DNA of 64,000 bases from an uncultured Bacteroidales bacterium (lineage in GTDB: Bacteria > Bacteroidota > Bacteroidia > Bacteroidales > VadinHA17): positions 48 through 64,047 of the forward strand of contig CAWKIC010000026.1 of NCBI GenBank assembly GCA_963849615.1, given 5' to 3'. Within the stretch, counting starts at the first letter, position 1. Each line of letters starts with the position of its first letter. The translations under genes were made by a program, and so were the position numbers. The notes below the pieces were generated by a model. The model saw nothing but the letters and a program-made list of their open reading frames with translations, was not told where the DNA came from and did no database searches. Shown piece after piece: positions 5,452 to 64,000 of the stretch.

Positions 5452-6310
5452 TTATAACTTTTCTCCGGTCAATTTTGTGCCTGTCCCATCCTTTTCAATT
5501 ACATCAATAATCCTGTTGAACAATAGCTGTGCTGCTTTGGCTGCAAATTCTCCATTGGGATGGGAATCCCGCGGGAGAGGAGGCATACTCTTCCTTAAAA
5601 TATAATCCTCCCCCGGTTTCCAGGGTATAAAGATCCCATATATGAATATTATCACCGGGTAAGTCCCATTCGCTTGTTACCCATCCGAAAAATTCTTGCG
5701 CTCTTTTGGCTTCATCTTCTTTTACAGCTCGATTTCACCTGAGCAGCACCGGTAAAGAGGATAAATTTTGTGTCAGGAAATTCATGAAGCTTTATCTCTT
5801 AAAGCCAGCATATTGCAAGCTTATAGTTTGCCAGCGATTTGTAGTCAGAGTTGATGTCAGCCGGTGTCCTTATCAGCCTGGATATTGCTAACGGGAAAAC
5901 AATGTTTGAAAATTATTACCTGGTATTGCTTTGTCAGCATTTCCAGGGTCGGTTCCTCCATAAAAGGCTTATTACCTGCATTCTTAACCCATATGTTGTA
6001 ATAATCATAGGGATAGTTATGCCATCCGTAGGAGATGCTTTCGGAAATATCATCTCTTTTAATGAGATAGTTCTTGTTGTTCTCTTCATTATACTTATCA
6101 AACAATTGGGCAAACGGCTTTAGCATATAAGTCTGCTGCTTTGTACTCAACTATTCTGCGTGCACTAGTTTCGAACTGACTTTCTTTGACACCACCGGTA
6201 CTGTGATAACAAGTGATATTCATATCAGATGTTCTTTCTTTCTGCCAGAATAAGCACCAACCAGTACTAAGTGATGAAGATAAATTAATGTTCATATATA
6301 AGTCTTTCAT
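5452..6310 (-). pseudogene. Hypothetical protein split into at least 3 ORF fragments, possibly a GDSL/SGNH-like hydrolase
   Basis: Collinear minus-strand fragments at 6098..6310, 5857..6150 and 5452..5655. The C-terminal RDSHPNGEFAAKAAQLLFNRI resembles the SGNH block V (DxxH). The family call is weak. Confidence 0.35.
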
Positions 6311-13885: not shown

Positions 13886-13996
13886 TCCTCTCCACCTCTC
13901 CCCTAAATCCCACTCCCCCGTGTGGGAGGGGCTTAAAAACCAGTAGTTAAGCCCCTCTCACTCCGGGAGAGGGGGATTTAGGGGGTGAGGTGGAGG
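13886..13996. repeat. About 110-bp composite palindromic element (family J)
   Basis: The terminal inverted repeats are cctccacctctcccctaaatccc and gggatttagggggtgaggtggagg. They enclose two hairpins, CTCCC ccgtgt GGGAG and CCCCTCTC actccgg GAGAGGGG. Confidence 0.85.
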
Positions 13997-13998
13997 TC

Positions 13999-14547
13999 TC
14001 AGAAATTATTCTCCGCATCCCTTAAATTCGGATGCCTTAAATCCTTGTCGCTGATTATCGACTTTACCTTGCCAAGTTTCCAATCGATATTCAGTTCAGG
14101 ATCAGCTAACGAAATACCACATTCATATTTTGGATTATAAACATTATCACATTTGTACTGAATTATAGTTGTATCACTCAATACTGAGAATCCGTGAGCA
14201 AATCCCCGTGGAATAAAAAGCTGATTCTTGTTTTCCGAATCAAGCTCAATTCCGAACCATTTTCCAAAAGTAGGGGAGTCCCTTCGCAGATCCACAGCAA
14301 CATCAAGCACTTTACCAATAACCACACGTATCAGTTTCGCCTGATCAAAAGGCTTTAACTGGTAGTGAAGGCCTCTTATCACACCCATAACAGATTTTGA
14401 CTCATTGTCCTGGACAGGTAAAAAAGAGATACCTGCCTTTAAAAAGATATCATGTCTATAGCTTTCAAAAAAGTAACCTCTGCTGTCAGTAAAAACTTTA
14501 GGTTGAATTACGCATAAACCGACAAATTCAGTCTCGATTATTTTCAT
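13999..14547 (-). CDS. rfbC: dTDP-4-dehydrorhamnose 3,5-epimerase
   Basis: 182 aa containing FTDSRGYFFESY...IRGLHYQ...QAKLIRV..G.VLDVAVDLR..SPTFGKW...FIPRGFAHGF. Confidence 0.92.
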   Translation of the reverse strand: MKIIETEFVGLCVIQPKVFTDSRGYFFESYRHDIFLKAGISFLPVQDNESKSVMGVIRGLHYQLKPFDQAKLIRVVIGKVLDVAVDLRRDSPTFGKWFGIELDSENKNQLFIPRGFAHGFSVLSDTTIIQYKCDNVYNPKYECGISLADPELNIDWKLGKVKSIISDKDLRHPNLRDAENNF

Positions 14548-30736: not shown

Positions 30737-31324
30737 CTATTTTTTCCTGTTCTCAGACTTCTTCTTTTCAACAGAGAACCCGAATTTGCCTATGAAATCG
30801 CCGGTTTCAAAATATTTACCGTGTGAATAGCATATAGGATTAGCGTCAAATAACCTGAAAACGCCTGTCTTTTCATCAAACAGTTCTTTCTCCGCATTTA
30901 TGGCCACTACTTCTGAAATGAACATGTGGTGGGTTCCCAGTTCTTTTATCTCCTTTACAACACACTCTATGTTTACAGGTGATTCCATTATCATTGGCGC
31001 CTTAACTTTTGTCGCGGCAACAGGAGTAAGGCCCATTTCTTTGAATTTATCAAGCTCAGCCCCTGATTTAACACCGCACCAGTCAGTTGCAAAGGCCAGC
31101 TTTTTTGTCGTCAGGTTTATAACGAACTCGCCGTTTTTCTTTATGATCCCGTAAGAATGCCTTGACGGTCTGACTGAAATATAACACATCGGTGGATCGG
31201 TGCAAATCGTTCCTGTCCAGCTTATCGTAAGTATGTTATATTCTTCCGGTGTTGCTCCGCAGCTAACCATTACAGCGGGTAGCGGATAGATCATGGTTCC
31301 GGGTTTCCATAGAAGTTTGCTCAT
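30737..31324 (-). CDS. Flavin reductase-like FMN-binding protein
   Basis: 195 aa containing YPLPAVMVSCG...NILTISWTG..CTDPPMCYISVRPSRHSYGIIKKNGEFVINL. Confidence 0.75.
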   Translation of the reverse strand: MSKLLWKPGTMIYPLPAVMVSCGATPEEYNILTISWTGTICTDPPMCYISVRPSRHSYGIIKKNGEFVINLTTKKLAFATDWCGVKSGAELDKFKEMGLTPVAATKVKAPMIMESPVNIECVVKEIKELGTHHMFISEVVAINAEKELFDEKTGVFRLFDANPICYSHGKYFETGDFIGKFGFSVEKKKSENRKK

Positions 31325-31403
31325 TCGGCTTTTTTCTTTAAAGATACCTTTTTATTTAAACGCAAAGGTTCTCACCTATAAGGAATCTTAGGAACATTCC
31401 AGG

Positions 31404-31512
31404 ACCTCTCCCCAACCCCTCCCCCGGGTGGGAGGGGCTTAAAAACCAATAGTTTAAGTTCCTTTTATAAATACATGGAAGATTTGGGTTTAAGTCCCCC
31501 TCTCACACCGGG
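31404..31512. repeat. Left part of a family-J palindromic element interrupted by the mobile element
   Basis: cccccgggtgggaggggcttaaaaaccaatagtttaag...gtccccctctcacaccggg parallels 13910-13967. Confidence 0.8.
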
Positions 31513-32466
31513 CTACCCTTTATACACATCTTTTTAAATTCTGAATTTACTCTGTCGTTTTTAGTCAAGCTGGCTCTGAAAGAGCCAAATATGAATAACC
31601 CCTGGCGCAGCCAGTGGTGATGACCACCAAACACTTCCAGCTCTGAAGGAGCTGAATATATTAGTTATGGAAAAAACTTTTCATCCGGCGTTATTCCGTA
31701 GTCCAGGAGAAGTTTTCTATACTCTTCCTCAAATGATATTTTTTGATGATGCTCCTGTTGATTCTTTATGTATTCAATTAGCCTGTTTATATCCATATAT
31801 GAACAGGTAAAAGAACCATAACCAACTGCCCATCCATTAAATAAAGGAAATAAATTGCTTCTTTTCATCCAAATTGAGGAAGATACCTTGATGTCCTTCA
31901 CAAAATCTATAGGAGCAATAGATGGATTCATATCTGTAAGAATATGGAGGTGATTTTCAACTCCATTTATACGATACAGGTGACTCTTTTTTTGCCTGAT
32001 TATCCCTGTAATATAAGAATAGAGTTCATGAGCAGTATTCTGTCTGATTGTTGGCAGGCTGTCCTTTGTCCTGAAAACAATGTGATACAGATGTTGACGA
32101 TAGCTTGACATAAAGCAAAATTTTAAAATTAAAAATATAGCGAGAGAAGACTAAATTACTCATTTACTTTATTAATTCCAATTATATTAAGCCCTTTCAG
32201 GGCTTGAGATCAGAGGGTTAGCCGTACCCCCGGCTGGCGCCGGGGGTTATTCATATTAAGCCACTTCGTGGCTTTTAAAAGAAACTAAATTCACAAAACT
32301 TTTTCAATCTGCGAGATAAAAAATGGTGCCATCTGAGGCCTGTAAATTAACCCCTGAACTATTCTCAACGCTCTGTGAAAAACGTAGTCAGTATGGTGAA
32401 ATTGACTTCTTTCATAGCCGTATGAGATAATCTTTAATAATGTTCAGAGATGTGTATAAAGATTAG
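31513..32466. mobile_element. 954-bp element with Tn5/IS50-like 19-bp inverted ends and a 9-bp target duplication, carrying a Y1 (HUH) transposase gene
   Basis: IR-L at 31513-31531 is CTACCCTTTATACACATCT. IR-R at 32448-32466 reads CTAATCTTTATACACATCT as reverse complement (17/19 match). CACACCGGG occurs at 31504-31512 and again at 32467-32475. Confidence 0.8.
31665..32111 (-). CDS. IS200/IS605-family Y1 (HUH) transposase, RAYT-like
   Basis: 148 aa starting YHIVFRTK, with the HUH motif NHLHILTD and the C-terminal LIEYIKNQQEHHQKISFEEEYRKLL. It is flanked by an inverted pair of hairpin-containing sequences. Confidence 0.8.
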   Translation of the reverse strand: MSSYRQHLYHIVFRTKDSLPTIRQNTAHELYSYITGIIRQKKSHLYRINGVENHLHILTDMNPSIAPIDFVKDIKVSSSIWMKRSNLFPLFNGWAVGYGSFTCSYMDINRLIEYIKNQQEHHQKISFEEEYRKLLLDYGITPDEKFFP

Positions 32467-32500
32467 CACACCGGGAGAGGGGAATAAAGGGGGTGAGGTG
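32467..32500. repeat. Right part of the interrupted family-J element
   Basis: cacaccgggagaggggaataaagggggtgaggtg parallels 13960-13992. Confidence 0.8.
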
Positions 32501-32619
32501 TTATTGAGATCTTTATCCTTCCTTTTGCCATATTGACATTCCATCCCCTCGAAATAATGCCAAAACGGCAATTAATTTAGCTGGCAGAATAATTGTATCT
32601 TGAAACAAAAGTCATAAAT

Positions 32620-35232
32620 ATGAATCTGAATAACTTCACCCTTAAAGCCCAGGAATCAGTCCAGCAGGCGTTTAATATTGCCAGTGCAAAAGGACAGCAG
32701 GCAGTCGAATGTGCCCATTTACTTCACGGAGTGCTAAGCGAGGCTGAAAATACAACCGAGTGGCTGCTGGGAAAGATCGGTGTCAACACCAATGCTGTTT
32801 TGACAGACGTTGAGAAGCTGATTGATACATATCCCAGAGTAACAGGCGCTGAAACCTACCTGTCATCAGGCGCTTCCGAAGCTATTCGTAAAGCTAATGA
32901 CAATGCTGCAAGGATGAAAGACAAGTTTGTCACCACCGAGCATATCCTGATGGGCATTCTTGACACTTCGGATGAGGCATCCCGGATCCTTAAGGACAAT
33001 GGAGTTACAATGAAGGATCTCAGGTCGGCTGTAAGCGAATTGAGGAAAGGTGCAACTGTCGAAAACCCGACATCGGAAGAGTCATTTAATTCCCTTAACC
33101 GGTATGCCATAAACCTGAATGAACGTGCAAGGTCAGGTAAGCTTGATCCCGTTGTGGGGAGAGATGACGAGATCCGGCGTATACTTCAGATCCTCACACG
33201 CAGGACAAAAAACAATCCTTTAATGATCGGGGAGCCGGGAGTAGGTAAAACAGCTATCGCAGAAGGTATTGCACACCGTATAGTAAGGGGCGATGTGCCG
33301 GAGGACCTTAAATCGAAAACCATTTATTCACTCGATATGGGCGCCCTCATTGCGGGAGCAAAATACAAAGGCGAGTTTGAAGAAAGACTTAAATCGGTTG
33401 TGAATGAGGTTATTGCATCAAATGGTGAGATTATTCTTTTTATCGATGAAATTCATACCCTTGTCGGAGCCGGTAAATCGGAGGGGGCCATGGATGCGGC
33501 CAACATACTTAAACCTGCTCTTGCAAGGGGCGAGCTCCGGGCTATAGGAGCAACAACAATTAATGAATACCAGAAGTATTTTGAGAAGGATAAAGCCCTT
33601 GAACGAAGGTTTCAGGTCGTAATAGTTGACGAACCGGGAAGGGAGGACACAATCTCAATCCTGAGGGGGGTGCGTGAAAAATACGAAACTCATCACAAGG
33701 TTATAATCAGGGATGAAGCAATAATTGCAGCCGTTGATCTTTCAACACGTTACATTACCGATCGCTTCCTTCCTGATAAGGCGATCGACCTGATTGATGA
33801 GGCTGCTTCACGATTGCGTCTGGAAATGAATTCAGTTCCCGAAGAGATCGACGAAACCACCCGTGCAATAACACGCCTCGAAATTGAGAGGGAAGCTATA
33901 CGCCGGGATGGGGATACCATAAAGGAACAGCAGATCTCAAAAGAGCTTGCCGAACTGCAATCAAAAAAAGATGAGCTGATGGCTGCCTGGAAATCAGAGA
34001 AGGAGATGATTGAAAATGTTCAGGATAAAAAGGAACAGGTTGAAGCTCTGAGGTTTGAAGCAGATGAAGCAGAACGTAAGGGGGATTATGGTAAGGTCGC
34101 CGAGATCCGTTATGGAAAAATAATAGGCATGGAAAAGGAGATTTCCGGGCTGAAGGATAAAATTGAAAAGAAAAGGAGCAAGGGGTCATTGGTGCAGGAA
34201 GAGGTGAGGTCGGAAGAAATTGCAGAAATTGTTTCAAGGTGGACAGGCATTCCGGTGACAAGGATGCTTGAAAGCGAAAAAGAGAAACTCCTGAGGCTTG
34301 AAGATGAGCTTCACAAGAGGGTTGTGGGACAGGATGAGGCAATCAGCGCAGTGGCTGATGCAGTGAGGAGATCCAGGGCAGGACTTCAGGATCAGAAAAA
34401 GCCGGTGGGCTCCTTTATCTTCATCGGCTCAACGGGCGTTGGGAAAACTGAGCTTGCAAAGGCTCTTGCCGGATTCCTGTTCAATGATGAAAATCTCCTT
34501 ACCCGTATCGATATGTCGGAGTACCAGGAGAGACATTCTGTATCCAGACTCATAGGCGCCCCTCCTGGATATATCGGATATGAGGAGGGTGGACAGCTGA
34601 CTGAGGCTGTAAGGCATAAACCATATTCTGTCGTTCTGCTTGATGAAATTGAAAAAGCACACCCCGATCTATTTAACCTGCTTCTCCAGGTGCTTGACGA
34701 TGGCCGGCTTACCGATAACAAGGGACGAACTGTCAATTTCAGGAATGTCATAATAATAATGACCTCCAACCTGGGCTCTGACATTATCAGGGACAGGATG
34801 GAAAAATGGAAGAATAACATGCCTGAAGCCGAGACTGAACAGCTGAGGAAAGATATATTCATGCTTCTGAGAAGATCATTAAGACCTGAATTTCTTAACA
34901 GGGTGGATGAAATCGTTATGTTCAGACCATTAAATCTCGATCAGATAAGGGAAATAGTCAGAATTCAGCTCGATAACCTGAAGAAGATGCTTGAAAATAA
35001 CGATATGCAGCTTGAAGTCTCTGAGGAGGCAATCGACTGGCTCGCAAACCATGGTTATGATCCCCAGTCAGGCGCACGGCCTGTAAAAAGACTTATTCAG
35101 AAGACAATAGTTAATGAATTGTCAAAGGAAATAATTGCCGGTAAGATACAGAAGGACAATTCAGTCAAAATAGATGTTGTTAAAGACCATCTCACTTTTA
35201 CCGGCAGTAAAAGCCAGGAACTGGCTGTATAA
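32620..35232 (+). CDS. clpB: ATP-dependent chaperone ClpB
   Basis: Two AAA+ modules ([10 protein letters not shown] and [15 protein letters not shown]), the coiled-coil middle domain, and the N-terminal [17 protein letters not shown]. The track ORF begins at an upstream TTG at 32593. Confidence 0.95.
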
Positions 35233-43615: not shown

Positions 43616-43823
43616 TTCCCCTCCTTTTCAAGGAGGGGTGGCCGGGACATTGATTTTAAAGCGTTACAATTTGCTTTCCGGCCGGGGTGGTTGATTTATG
43701 TTTCAAGACTCTTTGAATAAACTAATAAGAAAGCCTAGTCAACCACCCCGGCCAGACGAATTTAGTTACTGCGGTTAAAATATTTCACCGTCTGGCCACC
43801 CCTCCTTGAAAAGGAGGGGAAAG
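43616..43823. repeat. About 208-bp nested inverted-repeat element
   Basis: The outer pair is tttcccctccttttcaaggaggggtggccgg (43616-43645) and ctggccacccctccttgaaaaggaggggaaag (43792-43823), each itself a palindrome. The inner pair is ccggccggggtggttga (43679-43694) and tcaaccaccccggccag (43739-43755). Confidence 0.85.
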
Positions 43824-61175: not shown

Positions 61176-63105
61176 ACACGTACTCACCCCCTTTTTCCCC
61201 CTCTCTACTAGCGTAAAGAGGGGGATGCCCCACACGTACTCACCCCCTTTTTCCCCCTCTCTACTAGCGTAAAGAGGGGGATGCCCTGGTATATTTAATT
61301 GATATTATATATATATTTATGGGTCGTTAGTTATTGTACACACGTACTCACCCCCTTTTTCCCCCTCTCTACTAGCGTAAAGAGGGGGAGGCCCCTGGTA
61401 TATTTAATTGATATTAATATATTTATGAGTGGTTAGTATTGTACACACGTACTCACCCCCTTTTTCCCCCTCTCTACTAGCGTAAAGAGGGGGATGCCCC
61501 TGGTATATTTAATTGATATTAATATAATTATGGGTCGTTAGTATTGTACACACGTACTCACCCCCTTTTTCCCCCTCTCTACTAGCGTAAAGAGGGGGAT
61601 GCCCCACACGTACTCACCCCCTTTTTCCCCCTCTCTAAGCGCAGGCTGGCTCCTTCGCTAAATTTGCCCACCGGGCAAATTTTTAACGCTCGGCCCTGTA
61701 AAGAGGGGGAGGCCTTTGGTATACTTAATTGATATTCTATTATTTATGAGCCGTTAGTATTGTACACACGTAGCTCACCCCCTTTTTCCCCTTCTCTAAG
61801 CGCAGGCTGGCTCCTTCGCTAAATTTGCCCACCGGGCAAATTTTTAACGCTCGGCCCTGTAAAGAGGGGGAGGCCTTTGGTATACTTAATTGATATTAAA
61901 ATATTTATGGGTCGTTAGTATTGTACACACGTACTCACCCCCTTTTTCCCCCTCTCTACTAGCGTAAAGAGGGGGATGCCCCTGGTATATTTAATTGATA
62001 TTAATATAATTATGGGTCGTTAGTAATTTACACACGTACTCACCCCCTTTTTCCCCCTCTCTACTAGCGTAAAGAGGGGGATGCCCCTGGTATAATTAAT
62101 TGATATTTATTTATTTATGGGTCGTTAGTATTGTACACACGTATTCACCCCCTCTTTTTCCCTCTCTAAGCGCAGGCTGGCTCCTTCGCTAAATTTGCCC
62201 ACCGGGCAAATTTTTAACGCTCGGCCCTGTAAAGAGGGGGAGGCCTTTGGTATACTTAATTGATATTAAAATATTTATGAGTCGTTAGTATTGTACACAC
62301 GTACTCACCCCCTTTTTCCCCCTCTATACTAGCGTAAAGAGGGGGATGCTCCTGGTATAATTAATTGATATTTATTTATTTATGGGTCGTTAGTATTGTA
62401 CACACGTACTCACCCCCTTTTTCCCCCTCTATACGCGTAAAGAGGGGGATGCCCTGGGTAAGAGTTAGAATATTTAGGAATGCATATCCTTCGAATTAAG
62501 AATGAGGAGTTAGTCGATTTAAAAAGTGTCATTAACAAAATAGAAAACTATCTTCTTTCAATTACCTAAAGTAATTATTATCTACAGGGCTATCGCCCCC
62601 TCTTTACGCAGTAGAGAGGGGGCAGGGGGGGTGAGTACGTGGGGCGGCTTGAGAAGGGATTTTTCCTGCGAAAGGGTGTTAAGGAGAAGAAATAGATTGC
62701 TCCTGGATCACACGTACTCACCCCCTTTTTCCCCCTCTCTACTAGTGTAAAGAGGGGGATGCCCCTGGTATATTTAATTGATATTAATATAATTATGGGT
62801 TGTTAGTATTGTACACACGTACTCACCCCCTTTTTTCCCCCCCCCTACTAGCGTATAGACTGGTATATTTAATTGATATTAATATGATTATGGGTCGTTA
62901 GTAATTTACACACGTACTCACCCCCTTTTTCCCCCTCTCTACTAGCGTAAAGAGGGGGAGGCCCCTGGTATATTTAATTGATATTAATATATTTCGTTAG
63001 TAATTTACACACGTGGTCACCCCCTTTTTCCCCCTCTCTACTGCGTAAAGAGAGGGGGAGGCCTTTGGTATACTTAATTGATATTCTATTATTTATGAGC
63101 CGTAA
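61176..63105. repeat. Tandem array of 16 direct units plus one inverted copy
   Basis: The 56-nt core is acacgtactcaccccctttttccccctctctactagcgtaaagagggggatgcccc. A spacer of about 50 nt follows, tggtatatttaattgatatt..tatgggtcgttagtattgtac. Cores start at 61176, 61232, 61340, 61445, 61550, 61606, 61766, 61927, 62032, 62137, 62297, 62402, 62710, 62815, 62910 and 63009. Unit lengths are 56, about 105 and about 160 nt. No ORF of 60 aa or more lies on either strand. Confidence 0.95.
62587..62642. repeat. Inverted-orientation copy of the array core
   Basis: gggctatcgccccctctttacgcagtagagagggggcagggggggtgagtacgtgg is the reverse complement of the core consensus with a few changes. Confidence 0.9.
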
Positions 63106-63200: not shown

Positions 63201-63224
63201 GCTATCACCCCCTCTCTACGCAGT
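63201..63224. repeat. Second inverted core copy, truncated in its hairpin loop by the IS insertion
   Basis: gctatcaccccctctctacgcagt aligns with 62590-62613 and ends exactly where the IS end begins. Confidence 0.85.
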
Positions 63225-64000
63225 CTACCCTTTATACACATCTTTTCTTTTTAAGTATTCTAAAGCCATTTGGAACCCGTCAGCCTTATCATAAAATCTA
63301 TCAGTTCCATCTTTAATATGATATATATCCAGGTGGTCCCTGAGATTGATAGCCACTCCATCCACCTAGTCTTCCCATGGCCCAGGTAGCCCATTGAAGA
63401 GAACCTTTTTCATATGGATTTTTGAGCTTTTCGGTTTTCCCTTCAAGCTTCTCCATATAAATTGAAAGAAAATGTAATTGTTCTTTTGAAAAGATAATAT
63501 TCGCATTAACCTTATGAGTATTTGATGAGTGATAATTTCAATGTCATGGTTGTCAATGCTACTTGTAAAGCTATGACAGCAAGTTTTTTAAGTCCTCCAC
63601 CTGTCTCTAATTGAGATTCTTCAATAGCTAATCCTTTACTCTTTAAAACACGGAATAACTCTTCTATAAACCATCTTTGACTGTACCATTCAACACATTT
63701 AAGTGCATCCTCAGCACATTCAATTGAATGTGTTGTTAACAATCTCCATAAAACAGGATCTTCTTTGCCAGGTACACTCTCTGGGAGCTCTCTTGCTTCA
63801 ATGGCCCACATCTCAACATAGCTTGGCTTATTCTCAAGAGGTCTGTTCTTAGGATGTTTTATTTTTACTTTCTCATACTTTAAGGACATCTTTGCTTTTC
63901 GTTTTACCCTTTTACGATTATTGCGGATATCAAGCTCATAACTTGCTCTTCTGCTCTGAAGAACTTAACTTTTCAAATAAATTTTGATCTTCTCCCCACA
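63225..64000 (-). mobile_element. IS4-family (Tn5/IS50-like) insertion sequence; one end plus a decayed transposase; continues beyond the window
   Basis: The terminal 19 nt, CTACCCTTTATACACATCT (63225-63243), are identical to IR-L of the 31513 element. The transposase C-terminus ends a few nt inside. Confidence 0.8.
63244..64000 (-). pseudogene. Tn5-like DDE transposase (IS4 family), C-terminal part, with stop codons and frameshifts
   Basis: [46 protein letters not shown] carries the YxxRWxIE signature. After the stop at 63512, KNPYEKGSLQWATWAMGRLGGWSGYQSQGPPGY follows, then another shift. An additional in-frame stop lies at 63965-63967. Confidence 0.8.

What the first reader, a model, noticed from the sequence alone, without database searches (positions are those of the whole stretch)
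31504..32475. Element with Tn5-type ends and a 9-bp target duplication that carries an IS200/RAYT-type HUH transposase instead of a DDE transposase
**Ends and duplication (seen directly).** The 19-nt inverted ends are CTACCCTTTATACACATCT (31513-31531) and, as reverse complement, CTAATCTTTATACACATCT (32448-32466), a 17/19 match. They are bracketed by a perfect 9-bp direct repeat, CACACCGGG, at 31504-31512 and 32467-32475.

**Empty site.** Deleting the element plus one CACACCGGG copy rebuilds ..gtccccctctcacaccgggagaggggaataaagggggtgaggtg. This is collinear with the uninterrupted paralog at 13951-13992 (hairpin CCCCTCTC/GAGAGGGG followed by GGGGGTGAGGTG). The insertion and duplication are therefore real.

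**Link to a DDE transposase.** The same end (22 nt identical) terminates the Tn5-like DDE transposase pseudogene at 63225.

**Established knowledge.** Tn5/IS50 uses 19-bp ends and makes 9-bp duplications. As I recall the Tn5 mosaic end (CTGTCTCTTATACACATCT), the inner 12 nt TTATACACATCT are identical here. IS200/IS605 and RAYT elements normally have neither inverted ends nor target duplications.

**Inference.** This is either a non-autonomous IS50-like vehicle, mobilised in trans, that has captured a RAYT unit as cargo, or a RAYT unit nested inside an IS50-derived MITE. Either way one transposon superfamily appears to be hitch-hiking on another.
Basis: partly seen in the sequence, partly recalled or inferred. 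Interest (0 to 1): 0.75.

Follow-up and report, generated by a model that had tools for sequence, protein, structure and literature searches.

The report
Tn5-like cassette carrying a HUH transposase
A 954-bp mobile cassette has the ends and 9-bp footprint of a Tn5-like cut-and-paste transposon but carries, instead of that transposon's own enzyme, an intact gene module from the unrelated IS200-type (HUH/Y1) superfamily, and the same hybrid design recurs across Bacteroidales, so one kind of transposon is riding on another.

Summary
The 19-bp inverted ends match 17/19 and sit at 31513-31531 and 32448-32466. A perfect 9-bp duplication, CACACCGGG, brackets them. An intact 148-aa HUH/Y1 gene lies between them. 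The same end borders a frameshifted Tn5-homologous DDE transposase at 63225.

More than 118 genome loci, almost all Bacteroidales, carry these ends. They fall into three size classes:
- full IS50-subgroup elements of 1.47-1.57 kb
- heterogeneous gene-less MITEs of 165-600 bp
- cassettes of about 0.8-1.0 kb whose cargo is nearly always a Y1 gene

The cargo is a discrete 704-bp module (31571-32274) bounded by mirror-image hairpins that show compensatory changes. It also occurs "naked": most sampled relatives lack the Tn5-type ends.

Cassette-borne Y1 genes fall in three separate clades. They are under purifying selection (dN/dS 0.06-0.21). The same composite occurs at other sites with other flanks. 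Y1-deleted derivatives outnumber intact copies in soil metagenomes.

Insertions land in the loops of C-rich/G-rich palindromes.

Best reading: this is a non-autonomous IS50-like mobile insertion cassette, moved in trans, carrying a Y1 module that fits subclass 1.2. It is a new variant of a known kind, and I found no published description.

The parts
31494..31503 (.). Left stem (GTCCCCCTCT) of the target palindrome in an intergenic repeat.
   Evidence: It pairs with AGAGGGG at 32476-32482 once the element and one duplication copy are removed.
31504..31512 (.). Left copy of the 9-bp target-site duplication, CACACCGGG.
   Evidence: The paralog at 13960-13968 has a single copy.
31513..31531 (+). 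Tn5/IS50-type terminal inverted repeat, end A: CTACCCTTTATACACATCT.
   Evidence: It fits the IS50-subgroup end consensus CW------Y---CA-A--W- (PMC2266710 Table 1).
31532..31570 (.). Spacer between end A and the Y1 module.
   Evidence: End A plus this spacer (31513-31570) is 84-98% conserved in related Y1 cassettes L003, L001 and L148 and in their deletion derivatives L118 and L010.
31571..32274 (-). Discrete 704-bp Y1 module (the cargo): the gene plus mirror-image hairpin sets on both sides.
   Evidence: Similarity to 11 related loci, with or without Tn5-type ends, starts and stops at these same boundaries.
31571..31587 (.). Outer hairpin on the 3' side of the gene: TGGCTCT-GAAA-GAGCCA.
   Evidence: It is nearly invariant in clade A even where synonymous sites are saturated.
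31588..31618 (.). AATATGAATAAC head plus imperfect GC palindrome (REP-like). It is the inverted partner of 32227-32257.
   Evidence: a 21-nt inverted repeat, 95% complementary, with only these two copies in the window. Palindrome stems covary among relatives.
31638..31654 (.). Inner hairpin just after the stop codon: CAGCTC-TGAAG-GAGCTG.
   Evidence: A compensatory A:T to G:C change is seen in L146.
31665..32111 (-). Intact 148-aa HUH/Y1 gene. HUH motif is HLH; the Tyr motif is YIKNQQEHH.
   Evidence: dN/dS is 0.06-0.21.
32189..32205 (.). Inner hairpin upstream of the start codon: AAGCCC-TTTCA-GGGCTT.
   Evidence: compensatory changes.
32227..32257 (.). GC palindrome CCCCCGGC-TGGC-GCCGGGGG plus head (GTTATTCATATT). 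It is the inverted partner of 31588-31618.
32258..32274 (.). Outer hairpin on the 5' side of the gene: AAGCCAC-TTC-GTGGCTT.
   Evidence: compensatory changes at 4 of 6 pairs.
32275..32447 (.). Spacer between the Y1 module and end B.
   Evidence: Most of it (about 32281-32447) is absent from L001 and largely absent from L002. The part of it that contig L003 covers matches L003.
32448..32466 (-). Tn5/IS50-type terminal inverted repeat, end B: CTAATCTTTATACACATCT on the minus strand.
   Evidence: The identical sequence forms both ends of the L001 cassette.
32467..32475 (.). Right copy of the 9-bp target-site duplication, CACACCGGG.
63216..63224 (.). Loop (CTACGCAGT) of a CCCCCTCT/AGAGAGGGGG palindrome into which the DDE element inserted. 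It is the presumed duplication copy.
   Evidence: An uninterrupted version continues AGAGAGGGGGCAGG in run X4. Similar hairpins fill the array at 61176-63085.
63225..64000 (-). End (63225-63243) and C-terminal two-thirds of a Tn5-like IS4-family transposase. It has three 1-nt frame disruptions and runs off the window.
   Evidence: (72-97% identical, segment by segment, to the intact 483-codon frame of L020).
13893..14000 (.). Uninterrupted paralog of the target repeat. It serves as the empty-site model.

Best explanation
The 954-bp element is a non-autonomous member of an IS50(Tn5)-subgroup, IS4-family transposon lineage native to Bacteroidales. In established terms it is a mobile insertion cassette.

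**How it moves.**
- Its two 19-bp ends are the binding and cleavage sites of a Tn5-homologous DDE transposase.
- That transposase is supplied in trans by full-length 1.47-1.57-kb copies. One copy, apparently frameshifted, lies at 63225 in the same window.
- Cut-and-paste insertion with a 9-bp staggered target cut placed the element in the loop of a C-rich/G-rich intergenic palindrome and created the CACACCGGG duplication.

**What it carries.**
- The cargo is a self-contained 704-bp module.
- It holds a 148-aa HUH/Y1 single-strand DNA endonuclease gene (TnpA_Y1, best fitting subclass 1.2).
- The gene is flanked on each side by a mirror-image set of outer hairpin, AATAAC-headed palindrome and inner hairpin.
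- The same module also exists on its own elsewhere.

**History.**
- The module most likely entered, or became bracketed by, Tn5-type ends once in the ancestor of this clade.
- This happened independently in at least one other clade.
- Since then the composite has been spread by the DDE enzyme.

**What is shown.**
- The anatomy of the element.
- The family-wide distribution of the ends and duplications.
- Palindrome targeting.
- Movement of the composite as a unit.
- Purifying selection on Y1.
- Abundant Y1-less derivatives.

**What is inferred.**
- That the DDE enzyme is what moves it.
- What the Y1 protein does. The most likely role is cleaving and rejoining its own flanking hairpins.
For: **Ends and duplication.**

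**DDE partner.**
- The window remnant carries the YREK motif.
- It is 72-97% identical, segment by segment, to the intact L020 transposase.
- L020 matches Tn5 transposase over nearly its full length (PDB 1mus, E 2e-29) with the DDE residues aligned.
- It hits NCBIfam transpos_IS4_3 at 343 bits against a cutoff of 160.
- The ends fit the IS50-subgroup consensus (PMC2266710).

**Family of ends.** The genome scan gave more than 118 loci. Paired ends fall into three classes:
- 37 gene-less MITEs
- 13 Y1 cassettes of 773-1005 bp
- 7 full DDE elements
- With a 1-nt shift allowed, 34 of 62 have a 9-bp duplication with at most 1 mismatch.

**Unit mobility.**
- L003 is the same composite (97% nt, same spacers) with a different flank.
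- L001, L148, L036, L099 and L101 each sit at different sites with their own duplications.
- The left end is joined to several different flanks in runs X2-X4.

**Trans-mobilised derivatives.**
- A Y1-deleted form (joint 31763>32173) has depth 13-24, against 4-6 for the intact gene, in X1, X3 and X4.
- L118 and L031 are Y1-less derivatives in the same MAG as the intact L001/L106 cassette.
- Two 97%-identical 384-bp derivatives with their own duplications occur in the isolate Draconibacterium sediminis.

**Cargo is a discrete functional module.**
- Its boundaries are constant.
- HUH and Tyr are invariant.
- dN/dS is 0.06-0.21.
- 10 of 22 hairpin pairs show compensatory changes.

**Target preference.** 13 of 17 rebuilt empty sites fold into a hairpin centred on the duplication. 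Mean MFE is -7.8 against -2.9 kcal/mol for random sites (Mann-Whitney p = 3e-8).
Against: - No transposition was observed directly.
- The only DDE copy visible in the window is frameshifted, and the rest of the genome is unseen.
- I did not find the orthologous empty allele of this exact site. The empty-site-like contigs probably come from paralogous repeats. The closest relative's contig diverges 75 bp upstream of the neighbouring gene.
- About half of the paired ends lack a clean duplication.
- One conserved Y1 cassette (the P0068 locus, L124-L133) has none.
- No "empty shell" MITE matching this cassette minus its cargo was found, so how the cargo was captured is unresolved.
Confidence: 0.8

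Rival explanations
1. Static nesting only. A Tn5-type MITE inserted here first and made the duplication. The Y1 module later jumped into it by its own single-strand mechanism. On this reading the 954-bp composite itself has never moved.
For: - The Y1 module is discrete and also exists without the ends.
- MITEs with these ends have very heterogeneous interiors, so they often receive or enclose foreign DNA.
Against: - The same composite, with the same end-plus-spacer sequence (84-98% identity), occurs at other loci with other flanks: L003, L001 and L148.
- Its Y1-less derivatives are dispersed in the same MAG.
- The nesting therefore predates this insertion.
Confidence: 0.08
2. Functional partnership rather than plain hitch-hiking. 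The Y1 protein contributes to the spread of the cassette or of the whole Tn5-like family. It might do so by processing hairpin DNA, by giving a second single-strand route of mobility, or by generating the hairpin-rich MITE derivatives. On this reading that contribution is why the association is recurrent and the gene is kept intact.
For: - Cassette-borne Y1 genes fall in three separate clades, and clade B is almost entirely cassette-borne.
- Selection on the protein is strongly purifying, and the hairpins are conserved even where dS is saturated.
- Y1 is by far the commonest protein cargo in the scan that was unbiased with respect to cargo.
- Both systems deal with hairpin or palindromic DNA.
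Against: - Most relatives of the Y1 protein live without the ends: about 75 of 80 sampled loci.
- The hairpins that flank Y1 are unrelated in sequence to the CCCCTCT/AGAGGGG targets.
- Y1-less derivatives spread well.
- Other cargo exists, such as a DUF559 ORF in L062.
- No precise-excision or circle junction of the module was seen in four runs.
Confidence: 0.1
3. TIRYT/TIRtron-type element. The terminal inverted repeats are the Y1 protein's own recognition sites, as proposed for Y1 genes flanked by TIRs, and the resemblance to Tn5 ends is coincidental.
For: Y1 genes flanked by terminal inverted repeats have been described (PMC3733652; PMC6006769).
Against: - The same ends border Tn5-homologous DDE genes, whose C-terminus (..KDVYKG*) is encoded inside the repeat.
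- The same ends border dozens of MITEs that have no Y1-related sequence.
- The 9-bp duplications are a DDE hallmark.
- The TIRYT consensus GGGGWSAS is absent.
- The protein is not of subclass 2.1.
Confidence: 0.01
4. Artefact. The ends are Nextera/Tn5 mosaic-end adapter remnants or an assembly chimera.
For: The inner 12 nt are identical to the mosaic end, and the end matches it at 15/19 overall.
Against: - Four fixed differences from the adapter.
- The ends are found in more than 118 independent assemblies, almost all from one bacterial order.
- They are flanked by duplications and linked to natural transposase genes.
- They are present in contigs from independent runs.
Confidence: 0.01

Closest known systems
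Mobile insertion cassettes (MICs), e.g. MIC231 derived from IS231 of the IS4 family (Chen et al. 1999 and De Palmenaer et al. 2004, as cited in PMC2266710)
   Same: - IS4-family terminal inverted repeats and target duplications enclose passenger DNA without the cognate transposase.
- Mobility is presumed to be in trans, from full-length relatives in the same genomes.
   Different: - The passenger here is itself the catalytic gene and cis-hairpins of another transposon superfamily (HUH/Y1).
- The association recurs in separate Y1 clades and seeds MITE families.
- The vehicle belongs to the IS50 subgroup in Bacteroidales, not to IS231 in Bacillus.
IS50/Tn5 (IS4 family, IS50 subgroup)
   Same: - 19-bp ends starting with CT, fitting CW------Y---CA-A--W-.
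- 15/19 identity to the mosaic end.
- 9-bp duplications, and the YREK motif with DDE residues.
- Transposase homologous to Tn5 transposase over nearly its full length (E 2e-29).
   Different: - The hosts are Bacteroidales.
- The elements show a strong preference for the loops or centres of C-rich/G-rich palindromes rather than Tn5's weak consensus.
- The window element has no DDE gene.
TnpA_Y1 subclass 1.2 (Quentin, Siguier, Chandler and Fichant 2018, PMC6006769)
   Same: - About 148 aa.
- Tyr motif Y---Q--HH (YIKNQQEHH here against YIKNQKEHH).
- Found in Bacteroidetes.
- Close to, but distinct from, IS200 transposases (below the NCBIfam IS200 cutoff).
   Different: - That subclass was described as low-copy and generally without IS200-type end structures or REPs.
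- Here the genes are flanked by conserved, covarying, mirror-image hairpin sets, and some lineages are mobile inside a DDE shell.
- The HUH context is NH[LI]H rather than DH[IV]H.
- Assignment is by signature only, not by phylogeny with reference sequences.
RAYT/REPtron and TIRYT/TIRtron (PMC2817692, PMC3733652)
   Same: - A Y1 gene is bracketed by inverted palindromic repeats.
- A collapsed two-head form resembling a REPIN exists (L006).
- For TIRYT: a Y1 gene between terminal inverted repeats.
   Different: - The protein lacks the class-2 motifs (YIxxNP).
- The head is AATAAC, not GTAG.
- No dispersed copies of its palindromes occur in the 64-kb window.
- The outer repeats are DDE ends with 9-bp duplications, not the GGGGWSAS TIRs.
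Fanzor/TnpB genes carried inside diverse eukaryotic transposons (Bao and Jurka 2013, PMC3627910; abstract seen)
   Same: A gene from the IS200/IS605 world rides as a passenger inside transposons that are moved by unrelated transposases.
   Different: There the passenger is TnpB in eukaryotic elements. Here it is the Y1 TnpA-type gene, with its hairpins, inside a bacterial Tn5-like shell.
IS1397 and IS621, which insert into REP/BIME palindromes (cited in PMC2817692)
   Same: Insertion is directed into intergenic palindromic repeats.
   Different: They belong to different IS families (IS3; IS110), make different duplications, and carry no cargo.

Membership tests
IS4 family, IS50 subgroup (for the ends and the DDE partner) | DDE transposase with the Y-(2)-R-(3)-E-(6)-K signature | tested here: met
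   [15 protein letters not shown] is present in the window remnant. The D, D and E residues align with Tn5 in L020. NCBIfam transpos_IS4_3 scores 343 bits against a cutoff of 160.
IS4 family, IS50 subgroup (for the ends and the DDE partner) | Terminal consensus CW------Y---CA-A--W- with 5'-CT ends | tested here: met
   All three window ends fit every specified position. The consensus is from PMC2266710 Table 1.
IS4 family, IS50 subgroup (for the ends and the DDE partner) | Target duplication of 8-9 bp | tested here: met
   The window has 9 bp. With a 1-nt shift allowed, 34 of 62 paired elements have a 9-bp duplication with at most 1 mismatch.
IS4 family, IS50 subgroup (for the ends and the DDE partner) | Full-length size of 1350-1550 bp | tested here: met
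   Full copies are 1472-1568 bp, which lies at or slightly above the stated range.
Mobile insertion cassette (MIC) | IS-type inverted ends plus direct repeats enclosing passenger gene(s), with no cognate transposase inside | tested here: met
   The only ORF with a family match is Y1_Tnp, and there is no DDE similarity inside 31513-32466.
Mobile insertion cassette (MIC) | Mobilised in trans by the transposase of the parent IS | not testable with these tools
   The support is indirect:
- the composite occurs at several sites
- dispersed Y1-less derivatives exist
- full ISs co-occur with derivatives in the same MAGs
IS200/IS605 family, IS200 group (TnpA_Y1 subclass 1.1) | HUH motif and catalytic Tyr in a Y1_Tnp fold | tested here: met
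   Pfam PF01797, E 8e-20. The motifs align with ISHp608 TnpA and are invariant in alignment A1.
IS200/IS605 family, IS200 group (TnpA_Y1 subclass 1.1) | Scores as an IS200 transposase equivalog | tested here: not met
   NCBIfam NF033573 scores 49.8 bits, below the cutoff of 55. The Tyr motif is YIKNQQEHH, not Y[IV]ENQ.
IS200/IS605 family, IS200 group (TnpA_Y1 subclass 1.1) | Distinct left and right subterminal hairpins on the same strand; no inverted repeats | tested here: not met
   The two flanks are mirror images. The 21-nt inverted repeat is 95% complementary, and the hairpin loops read GAAA/GAAG on opposite strands.
RAYT / REPtron | Y1 gene flanked by inverted palindromic repeats | tested here: met
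RAYT / REPtron | The same palindromes are abundant elsewhere in the genome (typically more than 100 copies) | tested here: inconclusive
   No copy lies outside the element in the 64-kb window. In fetched loci, copies away from Y1 genes lie mostly inside Tn5-ended MITEs. No whole genome was available.
RAYT / REPtron | Class-2 protein motifs (for example YIxxNP) and a GT(A/G)G REP head | tested here: not met
   The Tyr motif is YIKNQQEHH and the head is AATAAC. Motif definitions are from PMC6006769 and PMC2817692.
TnpA_Y1 subclass 1.2 | Y---Q--HH signature, about 148 aa, Bacteroidetes or Cyanobacteria | tested here: met
   The definition is in PMC6006769. The HUH context differs (N instead of D). 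No phylogeny with reference members was made.
TIRYT / TIRtron | TIRs of the GGGGWSAS type recognised by the Y1 protein; mostly subclass 2.1 with a C-terminal HTH | tested here: not met
   The ends are CTAYCC..., they are shared with DDE elements, and the protein has no HTH extension.

The most novel reading that the evidence does not exclude
A long-lived, repeatedly formed symbiosis between two transposon superfamilies.

- A Y1/HUH lineage of so far unknown function (subclass 1.2) has in several clades handed over its mobility to a Tn5-like DDE shell that targets palindrome loops.
- The Y1 protein, which is kept under selection, would in return provide a function to the composite. Candidates are hairpin processing, a second single-strand route of mobility, or production of the hairpin-rich MITE progeny.
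- That would make this a two-enzyme chimeric transposon rather than a cassette with inert cargo.
Probability: 0.25. Interest if true: 0.75.

Novelty: new variant of a known kind. Interest (0 to 1): 0.58.

Why it matters
**Mobility context for an orphan Y1 subclass.**
- The subclass had been described as "not IS-like".
- It now has defined, covarying cis-hairpins that can be tested with the purified protein.

**Cross-superfamily hitch-hiking in bacteria.**
- A DDE cut-and-paste shell moves a HUH module and spawns MITE families.
- This bears on how non-autonomous elements and REP-like repeats arise.

**A natural branch of Tn5 relatives.**
- Its ends are close to the engineered mosaic end.
- It shows a marked preference for palindrome loops.
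- This may interest people who study or use Tn5 target choice.

**Practical consequence for annotation.**
- Pipelines will call these loci "IS200 transposase".
- They will miss that the mobile unit is a Tn5-type cassette.

Tried and rejected
**Searches that found nothing**
- Exact-sequence look-ups of the Y1 protein, the flavin reductase and ClpB.
- Plasmid collection, distant mode, with the whole element.
- Rfam on 31200-32800: only a chance-level snoRNA hit.

**Orthologous empty site not obtained**
- The same-species MAG contig L223 diverges 75 bp upstream of the flavin reductase gene and then ends.
- Relatives at 84% identity keep the clpB-flavin reductase synteny, with a 275-bp spacer that has neither the target repeat nor the element.
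- Empty-site-like contigs in X1 and X2 diverge again at about 32500-32507. I therefore treat them as paralogs of the repeat, not as alleles.

**How the cargo was captured is unresolved**
- No MITE equal to the shell without its cargo was found.
- No joint 31570>32275 or circle junction of the module appeared in four runs (these are contigs only, which drop rare forms).
- No homology between the cassette and the full IS extends beyond the terminal 20-30 bp.

**Readings rejected**
- Adapter artefact: rejected.
- TIRYT: rejected.
- Strict RAYT or IS200 membership: defining features not met.
- The idea that the hairpins flanking Y1 are the same repeats as the insertion targets: the sequences are unrelated.
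Full report
**1. The observation**

- CTACCCTTTATACACATCT lies at 31513-31531. Its partner, CTAATCTTTATACACATCT, lies on the other strand at 32448-32466. They match at 17/19.
- CACACCGGG abuts both ends, at 31504-31512 and 32467-32475.
- Allowing 3 mismatches, the end occurs three times in 64 kb, the third at 63225. Shuffled sequence gives 0.02 expected matches.
- The only ORF inside with a family match is 31665-32111 (-). It encodes 148 aa and hits Pfam Y1_Tnp at E 8e-20.
- It falls below NCBI's IS200 equivalog cutoff (49.8 against 55 bits).
- It aligns with ISHp608 TnpA through the HUH and Tyr motifs.

Removing the element and one 9-mer rebuilds a palindrome, CCCCCTCT-CACACCGGG-AGAGGGG, followed by GGGGGTGAGGTG. 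This aligns with an uninterrupted paralog at about 13893-14000 that holds one copy of the 9-mer.

The 22 nt at 31513-31534 recur at 63225-63246. There they border, on the minus strand, the C-terminal two-thirds of a transposase with the IS4 signature Y-2-R-3-E-6-K. That gene is interrupted by three 1-nt frame disruptions near 63318, 63526 and 63948.

**2. Whose ends these are**

Nearly all come from Bacteroidales/Bacteroidia: Prevotella, Paludibacter, Rikenellaceae, Prolixibacteraceae, and the isolates Draconibacterium, Maribellus and Marinifilum.

Pairing the ends gives three size classes.

| Class | Size | Count | Content |
|---|---|---|---|
| Full elements | 1472-1568 bp | 7 | Reading frames of 429-507 codons (four of them 476-507). 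The frames that run to the end finish ..KDVYK[G/E/D]* inside the inverted repeat. |
| MITEs | 165-600 bp | 37 | No gene |
| Mid-size cassettes | 717-1292 bp | 17 | 13 with a Y1 gene (773-1005 bp), 3 without one, 1 DDE remnant |

The intact frame of L020 is 72-97% identical, segment by segment, to the window's remnant. It also has these properties:
- It matches Tn5 transposase over almost its whole length (1mus, E 2e-29), with the catalytic residues aligned.
- It scores 343 bits on NCBIfam transpos_IS4_3.

The ends satisfy every specified position of the IS50-subgroup consensus. The duplication length (8-9 bp), the YREK motif and the size also fit that subgroup as defined in PMC2266710.

With a 1-nt shift allowed at an end, 34 of 62 paired elements have a 9-bp duplication with at most one mismatch. 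The ends therefore belong to a natural Tn5-like DDE system.

They are not adapter contamination. They differ from the mosaic end at four fixed positions, they occur in many independent assemblies, and they carry duplications and natural transposase genes.

**3. What the cargo is**

Comparison with related loci shows that similarity always begins and ends at the same two hairpins, window 31571 and 32274, whether or not Tn5-type ends are present.

This 704-bp module contains the gene and, on each side, a mirror-image set of three features:
- an outer hairpin
- an AATATGAATAAC head followed by a GC palindrome (a 21-nt inverted repeat, 95% complementary)
- an inner hairpin

In an alignment of 12 left flanks, 10 of 22 predicted pairs keep pairing through changes on both sides. 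The outer hairpins are almost unchanged between copies whose synonymous sites are saturated (dS 1.7). These are therefore functional cis-structures of the kind Y1 enzymes act on. That last step is inference.

The protein keeps HUH (H54, H56) and Tyr114 in all relatives aligned. It evolves under purifying selection, with dN/dS 0.06-0.21 between cassette-borne copies.

Its length and its Tyr motif YIKNQQEHH fit TnpA_Y1 subclass 1.2 of Quentin et al. That is a Bacteroidetes/Cyanobacteria group described as close to IS200 transposases but not IS-like and without REPs (PMC6006769).

It is not a canonical RAYT:
- The class-2 motifs and the GTAG head are absent.
- Its palindromes occur only twice in the 64-kb window, both times flanking the gene.

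**4. How tight the association is**

A metagenome scan with a profile of these Y1 proteins returned 80 loci at 37-84% identity.
- Only four have both Tn5-type ends (L148, L186, L198, L199), and one more has a single end (L145).
- The rest are flanked directly by their own inverted palindromes.

On a distance tree, cassette-borne genes fall in three places.
- Clade A holds the window, L001-L003, L124, L148, L186 and L145. It also holds naked or decayed copies: L134, L143, L144, L146 and L147.
- Clade B holds L036, L101, L199, L099, L198 and L088. These are about 40% identical to the window's protein, and L206 is the only clear naked member.
- L033 stands alone.

Within clade A the 58 bp of end plus spacer are 84-98% conserved. 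This points to one old capture followed by descent and movement as a unit. Clades B and C are most simply explained as separate captures. That is inference from the tree; many losses remain an alternative.

In the scan that was blind to cargo, Y1 is by far the commonest coding cargo. One other cassette carries a DUF559-like ORF (L062).

**5. Evidence that the composite moves and breeds derivatives**

- L003 is the same composite (97% nt, same spacers) next to different genes.
- L001 (827 bp) sits in another palindrome with an 8-bp repeat.
- L036, L099 and L101 have perfect 9-bp duplications, L099 and L101 after a 1-nt shift at one end.
- In soil and sediment runs, contigs join the left end to several different flanks.
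- In the same runs, the edges of the module are about five times deeper than the middle of the gene.
- A Y1-deleted form (joint 31763>32173 plus TTATA) has depth 13-24, against 4-6 for the intact gene.
- One MAG holds the intact cassette (L106 = L001) and Y1-less derivatives at other loci (L118, L031).
- The isolate Draconibacterium sediminis has two 97%-identical 384-bp derivatives, each with its own duplication.
- L006 is a 172-bp MITE whose interior is the two heads fused over a single palindrome, much like a REPIN.
- Full DDE elements co-occur with such derivatives in the same MAGs.

**6. Target choice**

Seventeen empty sites were rebuilt from elements with clean duplications. Thirteen of them fold into a hairpin centred on the duplication, typically CCCCTCT-loop-AGAGGGG. 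Mean MFE is -7.8 against -2.9 kcal/mol for random 45-mers from the same loci (Mann-Whitney p = 3e-8).

The DDE element at 63225 sits in the loop of the same kind of palindrome. Run X4 contains the uninterrupted version.

I cannot tell whether the enzyme reads a DNA structure or a symmetric duplex sequence.

**7. Mechanism proposed**

Shown:
- the anatomy of the element
- membership of the ends in the IS50 subgroup
- dispersal of the composite and of its derivatives
- selection on Y1 and on its hairpins
- palindrome targeting

Inferred:
- The DDE transposase of full-length relatives moves the cassette in trans by cut-and-paste with a 9-bp stagger.
- The Y1 module entered a MITE, or was bracketed by ends.
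- The Y1 protein acts on its own hairpins.

Rivals considered were static nesting, a true functional partnership, a TIRYT-type system and an artefact. They are weighed in the Rival explanations section.

**8. Comparison with what is known, and novelty**

| Question | Closest known | Note |
|---|---|---|
| Closest concept | Mobile insertion cassette (MIC231 of IS231, IS4 family) | |
| Closest enzyme for the shell | Tn5 transposase | |
| Closest protein class for the cargo | TnpA_Y1 subclass 1.2 | |
| Y1 genes between terminal repeats | TIRYTs (PMC3733652) | Different repeats, no duplications, no DDE link |
| Passengers from the IS200/IS605 world inside unrelated transposons | TnpB/Fanzor in eukaryotes (PMC3627910) | |
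| ISs that target REP palindromes | IS1397, IS621 | |

Six full-text searches found no description of a Y1 module inside IS4/Tn5-type ends. The library is incomplete, so this is absence of evidence only.

I rate the finding as a new variant of a known kind. It is real, coherent and moderately surprising, and it opens experiments that are directly testable.

**9. Limits**

- Only 64 kb of the host genome is visible.
- The DDE copy in view is broken. Related contigs in run X2 lack the extra base at two of the three disrupted positions, so intact relatives exist or the window has indel errors.
- The read evidence consists of assembled contigs, which hide rare forms.
- The orthologous empty site was not found.

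Noticed in passing
window 61176-63085: A tandem array about 1.9 kb long has units of about 105 bp (also 56, 95-99, 161 and 370 bp). Each unit carries a CCCCTCTCTAC..GTAAAGAGGGG hairpin. In soil run X1 it reaches a word depth of up to 243, so it is a very abundant repeat family. The DDE element at 63225 lies about 140 bp beyond the array's last unit.
   Followed up: partly
window 61605-61958 (161-bp units); also L036 about 940-1005, L099 about 5845-5910, L003 about 800-870: A small element of about 56-65 bp, GGGRCCGAGCGTTAAAAA..GCCC..GGGC..TTTAGCGA..GCCAGCCTGC, sits inside the loop of the array hairpins. Relatives of it lie inside or next to Y1 cassettes in other genomes. It appears to be a second kind of small insert that also uses these palindrome loops.
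   Followed up: no
window 43618-43819: A roughly 200-bp long-palindromic intergenic element is bounded by CCCCTCCTTTTCAAGGAGGGG and CCCCTCCTTGAAAAGGAGGGG. The same hairpin type is the insertion target of the cassette in L001, L118 and L148 and of a copy in run X4.
   Followed up: partly
L017, L033, L044, L068, L069, L098, L115, L122 (ends listed): - Many elements have one end ..ACACATCT and the other ..ACACAAAT or ..ACACAAGT.
- The ATCT end is constrained by coding the transposase C-terminus (..KDVYKG*).
- The ..ACAAGT variant matches the last 8 nt of the IS50 outside end as I recall it.
- Both ends of the window's cassette are of the ATCT type.
   Followed up: no
L062 4001-4717: A 717-bp element with Tn5-type ends (no clean duplication) carries a 106-aa ORF with DUF559 similarity (NCBIfam E 3e-14, below the cutoff). 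The shell can therefore hold other small genes.
   Followed up: partly
window 63318, 63526, 63948: The three frame disruptions of the DDE remnant are single extra bases that do not lie in long homopolymers. Related contigs in run X2 lack the extra base at 63525 and at 63948/9.
   Followed up: partly
L101 1355-1840 and 2015-3004: A second, distantly related Y1 gene without Tn5-type ends lies 175 bp from a Y1 cassette. The two Y1 genes are thus side by side.
   Followed up: no
window 31571-31654 and 32189-32274: All four hairpins flanking the Y1 gene have GAAA or GAAG loops: on the gene's sense strand upstream and on the opposite strand downstream. C-GAAG-G resembles the very stable d(GCGAAGC) DNA mini-hairpin (from my own knowledge). 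This fits a single-stranded DNA substrate.
   Followed up: no
L160 2984-3301: A naked relative of the Y1 gene is followed by four copies of its head motif TGAATAGCCATAG at intervals of 75-153 bp. This is a small REP-like array beside the gene.
   Followed up: no
L098 1170-2693 and 3476-5043: Two full-length, mutually divergent Tn5-like elements lie 780 bp apart in one Prolixibacteraceae MAG. Their transposases are 47% and 60% identical to that of L020.
   Followed up: no
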